Of a stretch of 64,000 bases of DNA, positions 7,930 through 60,269 are shown in pieces. Under the pieces are notes generated by a model. It saw only the letters and a list, made by a program, of their open reading frames with translations. It did no database searches and was not told where the DNA came from. Numbering within the stretch: the stretch's first letter is position 1; the number at the start of each line of letters is the position of its first letter. Where the stretch lies: NCBI RefSeq assembly GCF_054482525.1, contig NZ_CM137006.1; one strand, 5' to 3'. Position numbers and translations under genes: made by a program.

Positions 7930-7955
7930 TTCTCCCGATTTCCTCAATTGCAATG

Positions 7956-7986
7956 AACCCGATGATCTGCGCATCGGGTTTTTTAT
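7956..7986 (+). terminator. rho-independent terminator after cheW
   Basis: stem AACCCGATG/CATCGGGTT followed by T-run. Confidence 0.6.
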
Positions 7987-8015
7987 TTCAATTTAGCGGT
8001 AGGTGGCATCTGCAA

Positions 8016-8042
8016 TAAAGTTTCCCCCCTCCTTGCCGATAA
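8016..8042 (+). promoter_or_regulatory. sigma28 (FliA) class III promoter of the tar-tap-cheRBYZ operon
   Basis: TAAAGTTT - 11 nt - GCCGATAA is an exact match to the sigma28 consensus, about 30 bp upstream of the tar ATG. Confidence 0.8.
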
Positions 8043-20757: not shown

Positions 20758-21513
<756 letters not shown>

Positions 21514-21559
21514 TTTTTACCGTTGCATCATGTCGCCCAATATGATGCTTGCTCGTACC

Positions 21560-21592
21560 AGGCCCCTGCAATTTCAACAGGGGCCTTTTTTT
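21560..21592 (+). terminator. rho-independent terminator after cutC
   Basis: stem AGGCCCCTG/CAGGGGCCT followed by T7. Confidence 0.65.
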
Positions 21593-32654: not shown

Positions 32655-33176
32655 ATGGCTATTATTCTCGGCATTGACCCGGGTTCGCGCGTGACCGGCT
32701 ATGGCGTCATCCGCCAGGTAGGCAGGCAATTGTCCTACCTGGGTAGCGGATGCATACGCACCAAAGTGGATGATTTACCGTCTCGTCTGAAGCTCATCTA
32801 TGCGGGCGTGACGGAAATCATTACCCAGTTCCAGCCTGATTATTTCGCCATTGAACAAGTCTTTATGGCGAAGAACGCTGACTCAGCCCTGAAACTGGGG
32901 CAGGCACGCGGCGTGGCGATTGTGGCGGCGGTGAATCAGGAATTGCCGGTATTTGAATATGCGGCACGTCAGGTAAAGCAAACGGTGGTAGGTATTGGTA
33001 GTGCTGAAAAAAGCCAGGTGCAGCATATGGTCCGCACCTTGCTGAAACTGCCCGCTAATCCACAGGCGGATGCTGCCGATGCATTAGCTATCGCGATTAC
33101 CCATTGTCACGTCAGTCAGAATGCGATGCAGATGAGCGAATCGCGGCTGAACCTGGCGAGAGGGCGACTGCGTTAA
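32655..33176 (+). CDS. ruvC: Holliday junction resolvase RuvC
   Basis: 173-aa ORF from [17 protein letters not shown]. Confidence 0.93.
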
Positions 33177-33177
33177 G

Positions 33178-33780
33178 TTATACCGCCTCGGTCAGTTCCG
33201 GCTGAGGCGTTTCCACTCCCTCCGCATGAATCAACACCAAACCCGGATGATGCCACAAACTGGCTGGCGTGACGGTTTTACGCTCCCACGGAATAGAACC
33301 TAAGAACCAGAATTTCCAGAAAGTGAGTTTTGCATTCGGATTGCTATTTAACAATTCTCCAAACGTCTCTATTTCACCCACCGGAATACATAGCGCCTTT
33401 TTATAAATATCAAAAACAAATTTTGAACAGAACTGGCGCGAAGATTCGTATTTAAAACCGGTGTGGTAAAGTTTGCGTAGCCGGGAGGGAACCTGTTCAA
33501 CAATTCGTTGTTTTTGTTGTTCTGTAAGCCCGGCGTCTAATCGCTTTATAGCATAGCGTTGATTAGAAGAACGTTTAATAAAACGAGATAGCGTGGTGAT
33601 GGTTGAAAGGGGAACCCGGCTTTCTGCAACCATGAAGTCTTCACCGTTATGACCGATAATGATCCCGACGTGATTACTCCAGCAATTTGATGCAGCTGAT
33701 ATTTGACCAAATAAGGCAGCACCTATACATGTAAAGACGATATCACCAATTTCATATTCAGCAGGATAATTAATATTCAC
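33178..33780 (-). CDS. yebB: YebB, conserved protein of unknown function
   Basis: 200-aa ORF between ruvC and ruvA on the opposite strand, as in K-12. Confidence 0.8.
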
Positions 33781-33987
33781 ATTGTCATTCCATTGAAATA
33801 GATACGAATATACGTAATAGCATAAAAAATTTATTTTTTCAGGAGGCGCAATATGTATTTTTATTACGCATTTCTTCGCTGAATATGTAATATTTAAATA
33901 TTTGCTTCCAATATAACCTGTAGAATAAATTATACTGCGCCATTTTTCAGATCATCGGGACGCCTCGCAAGTTTTCTTCATCCTTCG

Positions 33988-34003
33988 CTGGATATCTATC
34001 CAG
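33988..34003. promoter_or_regulatory. LexA (SOS) box of the ruvAB operon
   Basis: CTGGATATCTATCCAG fits CTG-N10-CAG, about 50 bp upstream of the ruvA start. Confidence 0.8.
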
Positions 34004-34054
34004 CATTTTTTTATCATACAGCATTATCTTTGATTCATTACGCAGGAGCGTCAT

Positions 34055-34666
34055 GTGATAGGCAGACTCAGAGGCATCATCATTGAAAAACAACCCCCGC
34101 TGGTGTTAATTGAAGTGGGCGGCGTAGGCTATGAAGTGCATATGCCGATGACCTGTTTTTATGAACTCCCTGAAGCGGGTCAGGAAGCGATCGTTTTCAC
34201 CCACTTTGTGGTGCGTGAAGACGCGCAACTGCTGTACGGTTTTAACAATAAACAAGAGCGCACGTTGTTCAAAGAGTTGATCAAAACCAACGGCGTCGGC
34301 CCGAAGTTGGCGCTGGCGATCCTCTCCGGAATGTCAGCGCAGCAGTTCGTTAATGCCGTTGAGCGTGAAGAAGTGGGGGCACTAGTGAAACTGCCGGGTA
34401 TTGGCAAAAAAACCGCCGAACGCTTGATTGTTGAAATGAAAGACCGATTTAAAGGTTTGCATGGCGATCTCTTTACGCCAGCCGCCGACCTGGTACTCAC
34501 ATCACCTGCCAGCCCGGCGACCGACGATGCTGAACAGGAAGCGGTTGCCGCGCTGGTGGCGCTGGGCTATAAACCACAAGAAGCAAGCCGCATGGTGAGC
34601 AAAATCGCTCGCCCTGACGCCAGCAGTGAAACATTAATTCGCGAAGCCCTACGCGCCGCGTTATGA
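34055..34666 (+). CDS. ruvA: Holliday junction branch-migration complex subunit RuvA
   Basis: 203-aa ORF, GTG start, [15 protein letters not shown]. Confidence 0.95.
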
Positions 34667-34671
34667 GGTAA

Positions 34672-35685
<1,014 letters not shown>

Positions 35686-50642: not shown

Positions 50643-50687
50643 GTGTCTTTATTGCTGATGTTGATTTCCCAACCGAAAAGAAATATA

Positions 50688-50703
50688 CTGTATAAAATCA
50701 CAG
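50688..50703. promoter_or_regulatory. LexA (SOS) box upstream of yebG
   Basis: CTGTATAAAATCACAG fits CTGT-N8-ACAG, 20 bp upstream of the yebG ATG. Confidence 0.8.
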
Positions 50704-50722
50704 TTATTATGAGAGGCTGCAA

Positions 50723-59945: not shown

Positions 59946-60032
59946 AACATTTAAGCTAATGACCCCCACGCTTTTTATTGACCATTTTGCACGCAAACTG
60001 GAAAACCTGGCGTCGTCATCTATTCTTAAAGG

Positions 60033-60135
60033 GCAAGGCAACTAAGCCTGCATTAATGCCAACTTTTAGCGCACGGCTCTCTCCCAAGAGCCATTTCCCT
60101 GGACCGAATACAGGAATCGTGTTCGGTCTCTTTTT
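60033..60135 (+). ncRNA. sdsR: small RNA SdsR (RyeB), sigmaS-dependent Hfq-binding sRNA
   Basis: GCAAGGCAACTAAGCCTGCATTAATGCCAACTTTTAGCGCACGGCTCTCTCCCAAGAGCCATTTCCCTGGACCGAATACAGGAATCGTGTTCGGTCTCTTTTT matches the SdsR sequence from memory and ends in a terminator hairpin plus U-run; -10 element CATCTATTCT with C at -13 just upstream. Confidence 0.85.
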
Positions 60136-60269
60136 ATCTGTTAAAAGCCAGAAGCATTCCTTTCGCTGACTTTATAGTCAACCATAACACACACTCTACT
60201 GTCTGAGTCCAGCATTTTTTAACATTCCTGTTAAGATTATGTGATCTTTAGCGCGGGAGGAAAATATTG

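What the first reader, a model, noticed from the sequence alone, without database searches (positions are those of the whole stretch)
33988..34003. SOS box upstream of ruvAB
CTGGATATCTATCCAG fits the LexA consensus and sits immediately upstream of ruvA, consistent with DNA-damage induction of the operon.
Basis: partly seen in the sequence, partly recalled or inferred. Interest (0 to 1): 0.2.

Follow-up and report, generated by a model that had tools for sequence, protein, structure and literature searches.

The report
Known LexA operator of ruvAB promoter
The 16-base palindrome is the long-known LexA (SOS) repressor binding site on the promoter of the E. coli ruvAB recombination-repair genes, so the finding is correct but ordinary. 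The one small addition is that the same palindrome also looks like a transcription terminator for the gene upstream.

Summary
Confirmed and already known. CTGGATATCTATCCAG lies exactly at 33988-34003, 51 nt before the GTG start of ruvA (34055), in an E. coli chromosomal window. From 33976 to 34060 the sequence matches K-12 MG1655 base for base. It also matches the published ruvA LexA box.

- **Matrix score:** a LexA matrix built from 16 other published boxes gives 19.2 bits. That is inside the range of the 16 published boxes the matrix was built from, second best in the window after the yebG box, with 0.012 such sites expected per 64 kb.
- **Promoter context:** the box covers the -35 hexamer (TGGATA) and part of the spacer of the ruvAB promoter TGGATA-17-TATCAT.
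- **Conservation:** CTGGAT-N4-ATCCAG is invariant in all 78 usable Enterobacteriaceae species loci (2 of 80 lacked upstream sequence). In 76 it lies 47-52 nt before the ruvA start.
- **Published expression data:** ruvA/ruvB are induced about 2-3 fold, dependent on LexA cleavage.

One new point, inferred only: the palindrome plus the following T7 run is also a canonical intrinsic terminator (-10.6 kcal/mol). In 50 of 78 species it starts 6-27 nt (44 of them 12 nt) after the ruvC stop codon. In E. coli, yebB and yobI lie in between. I could not retrieve any 3'-end data to test this.

The parts
33988..34003 (.). LexA operator (SOS box) core CTGGATATCTATCCAG. The 20-mer form CGCTGGATATCTATCCAGCA is 33986-34005.
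   Evidence: 19.17 bits, 0.012 expected per 64 kb. Identical to the published ruvA box. The arms are invariant in 78/78 species loci.
33989..33994 (+). -35 hexamer TGGATA of the ruvAB promoter, inside the LexA box
   Evidence: Promoter scan. The same hexamers TGGATA-17-TATCAT are listed for ruvAB in the RpoD genomic SELEX paper PMC3946193.
34012..34017 (+). -10 hexamer TATCAT of the ruvAB promoter
   Evidence: TATNAT is conserved at this position in the species alignment (mean majority fraction 0.95).
33987..34004 (+). RNA hairpin GCUGGAU-AUCU-AUCCAGC formed by the same palindrome. This is the stem-loop of a terminator-like motif.
   Evidence: Terminator scan. Folding gives -10.6 kcal/mol, z -4.6. 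It is the most stable hairpin among 18 published LexA boxes.
34006..34012 (+). T7 run. It is both the promoter spacer and the U-tract of the terminator-like motif.
   Evidence: At least 6 T in the 8-nt tail in 77 of 78 species loci; majority fraction 0.99.
34044..34048 (+). Shine-Dalgarno AGGAG of ruvA
   Evidence: Sequence. Conserved (0.98) in the alignment.
34055..34666 (+). ruvA (GTG start, 203 aa), first gene of the regulated operon
   Evidence: The GTG start is present in all 78 loci with usable upstream sequence.
34675..35685 (+). ruvB (336 aa), second gene of the operon, 8 nt after ruvA
33851..33916 (+). yobI small ORF (21 codons), co-directional and 70 nt upstream of the hairpin. It is the only annotated + strand gene whose transcript could end at the hairpin in E. 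coli.
   Evidence: Annotation of the identical PCN033 sequence and of MG1655; alignment.
33178..33780 (-). yebB, divergent from yobI/ruvA. Together with yobI it separates ruvC from the box in E. coli.
32655..33176 (+). ruvC. In 50 of 78 other species its stop codon lies 6-27 nt (44 of them 12 nt) before CTGGAT.

Best explanation
The palindrome is the LexA operator of the sigma-70 promoter of the ruvA-ruvB operon of E. coli.

In undamaged cells a LexA dimer binds CTG-N10-CAG. The site covers the -35 hexamer (TGGATA, 33989-33994) and the first part of the 17-nt spacer before the -10 hexamer (TATCAT, 34012-34017). Bound LexA therefore competes with RNA polymerase. After DNA damage, RecA-stimulated self-cleavage of LexA frees the promoter, and ruvAB (Holliday-junction branch migration) rises modestly, about 2-3 fold. 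The box is of middling strength, so basal expression is substantial.

What is shown here: the sequence, its matrix score, its promoter overlap, its conservation, and its identity to the K-12 site. LexA dependence and induction are taken from the literature, not tested here. The occlusion mechanism is inferred from the geometry.

A secondary inference (probability about 0.5) is that the same palindrome plus the T7 run, transcribed from upstream, acts as a Rho-independent terminator. It would insulate ruvAB from yobI transcription in E. coli and from ruvC transcription in most other Enterobacteriaceae.
For: - The exact sequence is at the stated coordinates.
- The leave-out LexA matrix gives 19.17 bits, second in the window after the yebG box (21.18); the next hit is 12.87. 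Expected 0.012 per 64 kb; 3/300 shuffles reach it.
- The leave-one-out heterology index is 8.52, against 7.6 published.
- The window is E. coli. The intergenic region matches 5414 of 5426 complete genomes, and the 50-mer around the box is identical in 5157 of the 5171 genomes matched. It is identical to MG1655 from 33976 through the ruvA start.
- It is published as the ruvA LexA motif (PMC3009722 Table 4). ruvA/ruvB are induced 2.0/2.8x with 1.9/2.6x lexA3 dependence (PMC11228462 Table 1). ruvAB is listed among SOS genes (PMC6590174).
- The promoter TGGATA-17-TATCAT was found by my scan and is listed for ruvAB in PMC3946193.
- CTGGAT-N4-ATCCAG is invariant in 78/78 Enterobacteriaceae species loci, 47-52 nt before the GTG in 76 of them. 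Meanwhile the flanking 5' UTR and upstream DNA diverge, with majority fractions 0.71 and 0.59.
Against: - No binding or expression experiment can be run here.
- The box is not a strong one. The G at position 4 (CTGG rather than CTGT) and the CG..CA flanks depart from the TACTGT..ACAGTA consensus.
- Reported induction is small. The Salmonella study did not find ruvA among nalidixic-acid-induced loci and added it by hand (PMC8072944).
- PMC5999292 saw a biphasic ruvA promoter response and suspected another sigma factor.
- The promoter-scan match on its own is no better than chance (1 found vs 2.5 expected).
- The invariance of the arms could be partly driven by the -35 hexamer and by the hairpin rather than by LexA alone.
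Confidence: 0.93

Rival explanations
1. The palindrome is only an intrinsic (Rho-independent) terminator for upstream + strand transcription (yobI in E. coli, ruvC in other genera). Its resemblance to a LexA box would be incidental.
For: - The motif is hairpin GCUGGAU-AUCU-AUCCAGC followed by AUUUUUUUAU, at -10.6 kcal/mol, z -4.6.
- In 50/78 species loci the ruvC stop is 6-27 nt (44 of them 12 nt) before CTGGAT.
- Where ruvC is adjacent, the stem is nearly always extended to GGCUGGAU/AUCCAGCC + U7, at -14.6 to -15.3 kcal/mol.
- The GG..CC flanks lower the LexA score (15.6 vs 19.2 bits) but strengthen the stem.
- The T run is 99% conserved.
Against: - A 19-bit LexA matrix score has 0.012 expected per 64 kb, and the site sits on an operon with published LexA-dependent induction.
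- The two roles are not exclusive: a terminator does not need CTG-N10-CAG spacing or an AT-rich centre.
- No 3'-end mapping data could be retrieved.
Confidence: 0.03
2. It is a chance palindrome that merely contains the ruvAB -35 hexamer. ruvAB induction after damage would then be indirect.
For: - Induction is weak (about 2x).
- ruvA was not picked up in the Salmonella nalidixic-acid screen.
- The promoter shows odd biphasic kinetics.
Against: - Both arms are invariant in 78 species, although only the left arm overlaps the -35 hexamer.
- The matrix score lies well inside the range of the 16 published boxes the matrix was built from.
- Expression depends on LexA cleavage in lexA3 comparisons.
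Confidence: 0.02
3. The palindrome is the operator of a different dimeric regulator, not LexA.
For: Any perfect 7+7 palindrome could bind a helix-turn-helix dimer. PMC3946193 flags H-NS at this spacer.
Against: No other candidate motif is indicated by any result. The sequence is a specific match to LexA, including the CTG/CAG spacing, and regulation by LexA is published.
Confidence: 0.02

Closest known systems
E. coli K-12 ruvAB SOS box (LexA operator of ruvAp; my recollection is that it was first described with the ruv operon sequence in 1988 by Shinagawa et al. and Benson et al., papers not held here)
   Same: The sequence TTCGCTGGATATCTATCCAGCATTT is identical, as is everything from 33976 through the ruvA start. 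Gene order, promoter hexamers and distance to the GTG are the same.
   Different: Nothing in the element itself. The strain differs from K-12 only further upstream, for example 5 substitutions in 33930-33965 and the yobI start region.
Other gammaproteobacterial LexA boxes, consensus TACTG(TA)5CAGTA (recA, uvrA, sulA, cho, yebG and others)
   Same: It has the CTG-N10-CAG frame, an AT-rich centre and overlap with core promoter elements. Its matrix score is within the family range. The cho box CTGGATAGATAACCAG shares the CTGGATA half-site.
   Different: It has G instead of T at position 4 in both half-sites, and G/C instead of A/T next to CTG/CAG. This gives the most stable hairpin of 18 published boxes: -10.6 kcal/mol against 0 to -8.7. 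It is followed by a T7 run, which the other boxes in that table are not shown to have.
Canonical Rho-independent terminators
   Same: It has a 7-bp (E. coli) or 8-10-bp (other genera) GC-containing stem, a 4-nt loop and a U7 tract. It sits 6-27 nt (mostly 12 nt) after the stop codon of a co-directional gene in 50 species.
   Different: The stem doubles as a repressor operator and -35 hexamer, and the U-tract doubles as the spacer of the next promoter. Termination has not been demonstrated.

Membership tests
LexA operator (gammaproteobacterial SOS box) | CTG and CAG triplets separated by exactly 10 bp, in a dyad-symmetric 16-20-mer | tested here: met
   CTGGATATCTATCCAG at 33988-34003, with perfect 7-nt arms.
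LexA operator (gammaproteobacterial SOS box) | Whole-site similarity to validated boxes (position weight matrix / heterology index) within the range of functional sites | tested here: met
   19.17 bits with the site left out of training; the 16 published boxes the matrix was built from score 13.3-28.6 (self-included). Leave-one-out HI is 8.52, against 7.6 published.
LexA operator (gammaproteobacterial SOS box) | Position overlapping or adjoining the core promoter of the regulated gene | tested here: met
   The box covers -35 TGGATA and part of the 17-nt spacer before TATCAT. The transcription start itself could not be retrieved.
LexA operator (gammaproteobacterial SOS box) | Conservation at orthologous promoters | tested here: met
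   78/78 species loci keep CTGGAT-N4-ATCCAG, and 76 of them keep it 47-52 nt before the ruvA GTG.
LexA operator (gammaproteobacterial SOS box) | Physical binding of LexA | not testable with these tools
   No binding data were retrieved. The site is listed as a LexA box in PMC3009722 and PMC11228462.
LexA operator (gammaproteobacterial SOS box) | DNA-damage induction of the downstream genes that depends on LexA cleavage | not testable with these tools
   Literature only: ruvA 2.0x and ruvB 2.8x induction by AZT, with 1.9x and 2.6x lexA3 dependence (PMC11228462 Table 1).
Rho-independent terminator | Stable GC-containing stem-loop immediately followed by a U-rich tract on the transcribed strand | tested here: met
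   7 pairs, 4 of them G-C, a 4-nt loop and tail ATTTTTTTAT. Folding gives -10.6 kcal/mol, z -4.6. In other genera it is -14.6 to -15.3 kcal/mol with U7.
Rho-independent terminator | Location shortly downstream of a co-directional gene | tested here: met
   70 nt after the yobI stop in the window. It is 6-27 nt after the ruvC stop in 50 species loci, 12 nt in 44 of them.
Rho-independent terminator | RNA 3' ends mapped in the U-tract, or termination in vitro | tested here: inconclusive
   The supplements of two E. coli Term-seq papers either held no entry for yobI/ruvA or were not held at all.
Sigma-70 promoter | -35 and -10 hexamers at 16-18 nt spacing, with a mapped start site | tested here: inconclusive
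   TGGATA-17-TATCAT matches 9/12, and such matches are no rarer than chance in this AT-rich spacer. The same hexamers are listed for ruvAB in a SELEX-bound region (PMC3946193), and the -10 is conserved. Start-site data were not retrieved.

The most novel reading that the evidence does not exclude
The ruvAB LexA operator is a three-in-one element. On DNA it is the LexA operator and the -35 hexamer plus spacer of ruvAp. On RNA made from upstream, the same 7-10-bp palindrome plus U7 is the intrinsic terminator of the preceding transcription unit: ruvC in most Enterobacteriaceae, yobI in E. coli after the yebB-yobI segment came to lie between.

Selection for the hairpin would explain three things: why this box keeps the non-consensus CTGG..CCAG and G/C flanks in 78 species, why it is only a middling LexA site, and why ruvC stays outside the SOS regulon although it abuts ruvAB.
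Probability: 0.5. Interest if true: 0.3.

Novelty: already known. Interest (0 to 1): 0.1.

Why it matters
As a LexA box it adds nothing new. ruvAB is a textbook SOS operon and this exact site is in published tables.

It has two uses. First, it works as a positive control: the matrix cleanly separates the two real SOS boxes of the window (ruvA and yebG) from background. Second, it offers a minor comparative observation. An operator, a promoter and a terminator appear to be packed into about 30 bp, which would explain the site's non-consensus bases and how the constitutive ruvC unit is insulated from the SOS-regulated ruvAB unit. That point is inexpensive to test, but it would interest only specialists in SOS regulation or compact regulatory architecture.

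Tried and rejected
- **Bare CTG-N10-CAG count:** rejected as evidence. The pattern is enriched window-wide (31 vs 14.6 expected), mostly in coding sequence.
- **A second SOS box:** CATTTTTTTATCATACAGCA at 34004-34023 scores only 9.27 bits. Its CAG is lost in close Escherichia relatives and in other genera. CTGCGCCATTTTTCAG at 33935-33950 is not among the top matrix hits. Neither was accepted.
- **Known RNA family at the site:** none. The Rfam gathering scan of the whole window found only MicL, SraC/RyeA, SdsR/RyeB and C0465 elsewhere.
- **3'-end evidence for the terminator reading:** the eLife 2021 Term-seq supplements have no yobI/ruvA entry, and the NAR 2022 supplements are not held.
- **Transcription start data:** the Cappable-seq supplements have no coordinate match, and the held text may be truncated.
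- **Original papers:** the 1988 ruv operon papers and the 2008 small-protein paper are not held.
- **Literature on yobI:** the searches gave nothing useful beyond PMC3946193.
- **Another + strand terminator between ruvC and the box in E. coli:** none found.

Full report
**Observation.** The sequence CTGGATATCTATCCAG is at window 33988-34003 exactly as reported. It is a perfect 7+7 inverted repeat (CTGGATA/TATCCAG) around a 2-nt centre. The ORF that follows starts with GTG at 34055 and encodes the 203-aa RuvA, followed 8 nt later by the 336-aa RuvB. The box therefore ends 51 nt before the ruvA start codon.

**Where the window comes from.**
- The 274-nt spacer 33781-34054 matches 5414 of 5426 complete E. 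coli genomes, and is 100% identical in strain PCN033.
- Annotation of PCN033 and of K-12 MG1655 gives the order aspS-nudB-yebC-ruvC (+), yebB (-), yobI (+), ruvA-ruvB (+), znuB-znuC (-).
- From 33976 through the ruvA start the window is identical to MG1655.
- The 50-mer around the box is identical in 5157 of the 5171 genomes that megablast matched.
- Experimental knowledge from K-12 therefore transfers directly to this window.

**Is it more than chance?**
- The bare pattern CTG-N10-CAG is useless as evidence. It occurs 31 times against 14.6 expected, most probably because CTG and CAG are favoured codons.
- The full site is a different matter. It is the only sequence in the window within 3 mismatches of CTGTATATATATACAG.
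- I built a symmetrised log-odds matrix from the 20-mer cores of 16 LexA boxes printed in Table 4 of PMC3009722. I left out the two boxes that lie in this window (ruvA and yebG).
- The ruvA site scores 19.17 bits. It is second in the window after the yebG box at 50686-50705 (21.18 bits), and the next hit scores 12.87.
- The exact score distribution gives 1.8e-7 per position. That is 0.012 expected in 64 kb, or about 2e-5 for any given 100-nt upstream region. Only 3 of 300 dinucleotide shuffles of the window reach 19.17 anywhere.
- The Berg-von Hippel heterology index, computed leave-one-out on the same table, is 8.52. The published value quoted in PMC11228462 is 7.6.

**Promoter context.**
- The consensus scan finds one sigma-70-like promoter in 33700-34150: TGGATA (33989-33994), 17 nt, TATCAT (34012-34017).
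- On its own this is no better than chance in an AT-rich spacer (1 found, 2.5 expected).
- However, the same hexamers, TGGATA-17-TATCAT, are listed for ruvAB in the genomic-SELEX catalogue of RpoD holoenzyme sites (PMC3946193). The -10 hexamer is also conserved across species (see below).
- The box therefore covers the -35 hexamer and the first 9 nt of the spacer, a geometry in which bound LexA would exclude RNA polymerase. That mechanism is inferred. I could not retrieve a mapped start site.

**Conservation.**
- A protein-anchored scan of one genome per species returned 80 RuvA loci from Escherichia, Citrobacter, Salmonella, Klebsiella, Enterobacter, Kluyvera, Kosakonia, Raoultella and others, at 90-99% RuvA identity.
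- In all 78 loci with enough upstream sequence, the best matrix hit within 300 nt upstream of ruvA is CTGGAT-N4-ATCCAG, scoring 14.9-19.6 bits.
- In 76 of them it lies 47-52 nt before a GTG start. In the other two, an inserted element of about 125 nt moves it to 175 nt.
- In the alignment both 6-nt arms are invariant. The central 4 nt vary (ATCT, AAAT, ATTT, AAAC, ATGT, GTTT, ATTC).
- The T run (0.99), the -10 hexamer (0.95) and the Shine-Dalgarno (0.98) are conserved. The 5' UTR (0.71) and the DNA upstream of the box (0.59) have diverged.
- This is a clear phylogenetic footprint of a box-plus-promoter module.

**Literature.**
- The exact 25-mer TTCGCTGGATATCTATCCAGCATTT is listed as the ruvA LexA motif in a UV tiling-array study (PMC3009722).
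- ruvAB is in the standard list of SOS genes (PMC6590174).
- After AZT, ruvA and ruvB are induced 2.0 and 2.8 fold, with 1.9 and 2.6 fold dependence on LexA cleavage, and the box HI is 7.6 (PMC11228462 Table 1).
- There are caveats. In Salmonella, ruvA was not among nalidixic-acid-induced loci and was added by hand. It was grouped with genes that have LexA-independent basal expression (PMC8072944).
- The E. coli ruvA promoter showed a biphasic UV response, and the authors suspected another sigma factor (PMC5999292).
- From my own memory, not verifiable here, the box was described with the original ruv operon sequences in 1988. Those papers are not held.

**A second reading of the same bases (inferred, not shown).**
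- The terminator scan flags GCTGGATATCTATCCAGC followed by ATTTTTTTAT on the + strand.
- As RNA it folds into a 7-bp, 4-nt-loop hairpin of -10.6 kcal/mol (z = -4.6). This is the most stable hairpin among the 18 published LexA boxes, which range from 0 to -8.7 on the same strand.
- In 50 of the 78 species loci ruvC lies directly upstream, with its stop codon 6-27 nt before CTGGAT, and exactly 12 nt in 44 of them.
- Where ruvC is adjacent, the flanks are nearly always GG...CC. That extends the stem to GGCUGGAU/AUCCAGCC (-14.6 to -15.3 kcal/mol), followed by U7.
- The GG...CC flanks lower the LexA score (15.6 vs 19.2 bits) but strengthen the stem. At least 6 T occur in the 8-nt tail in 77 of 78 loci.
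- The simplest reading is that in most Enterobacteriaceae the palindrome also serves as the ruvC terminator, abutting the ruvAB promoter.
- In E. coli and some other lineages, yebB (and in Escherichia, yobI) lies between ruvC and the box. The hairpin then follows the co-directional yobI by 70 nt, and there is no other + strand terminator-like motif between ruvC and the box.
- I could not find 3'-end mapping data for this position, so termination remains untested. I put it at about 0.5.

**Comparison with what is known, and verdict.**
- The element passes every sequence-level test for membership of the gammaproteobacterial LexA-operator family: frame, matrix score, promoter overlap and orthologous conservation. 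Binding and induction rest on the literature.
- It is the known ruvAB SOS box, so the novelty class is 'already known' and interest is low.
- It differs from a typical box in its G/C-richer arms and the T7 tail. The terminator reading would explain both.
- No known RNA family overlaps it.
- The weak neighbouring half-site at 34004-34023 (9.27 bits) and the CTG-N10-CAG at 33935-33950 are not conserved and are not accepted as second boxes.

Noticed in passing
window 50686-50705: The best LexA-matrix hit of the window (21.18 bits) is TACTGTATAAAATCACAGTT. It lies 19 nt before an ORF starting MAVEVKYVV, and it is the published yebG SOS box.
   Followed up: partly
window 33851-33916 (+): In this strain the K-12 ATG start of the small ORF yobI reads ATA (K-12 ATGTATATT, window ATATGTATT). 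An Escherichia sp. relative also has ATA. PGAP still annotates a 21-codon yobI on the identical PCN033 sequence. An out-of-frame ATG at 33853, 7 nt after AGGAGG, opens only a 9-codon ORF. It is doubtful whether yobI is translated in this strain.
   Followed up: partly
L041 and L078, about 1330-1455 (between the ruvA -10 region and the Shine-Dalgarno): Pseudenterobacter timonensis and Enterobacter sp. RIT418 carry an insertion of about 125 nt. Its core (AAGCTCCTGGGGATTCAC) looks to me like an ERIC/IRU repeat, from memory. It moves the LexA box and promoter to 175 nt from the ruvA start.
   Followed up: no
window, whole: CTG-N10-CAG occurs 31 times against 14.6 +/- 3.7 expected from dinucleotide shuffles, and no shuffle reaches 31. 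This is probably a codon-usage effect (CTG Leu, CAG Gln) rather than regulation.
   Followed up: no
window 21285-21592 (+); 59995-60139 (-) and 60036-60135 (+); 7949-8026 (-): Rfam gathering-score matches: MicL sRNA, the overlapping SraC/RyeA and SdsR/RyeB pair, and C0465.
   Followed up: no
window 33176-33180: ruvC (+) and yebB (-) converge, with their stop codons only 1 nt apart and no terminator-like motif between them. yebB is present in only some of the 80 species loci. Most have ruvC directly abutting the ruvA promoter region, so the yebB(-yobI) segment has a patchy distribution.
   Followed up: partly
window 34004-34023: A weak LexA-like half-site, CATTTTTTTATCATACAGCA (9.27 bits), directly abuts the box and spans the -10 hexamer. 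Its CAG is lost in close Escherichia relatives and in other genera.
   Followed up: yes
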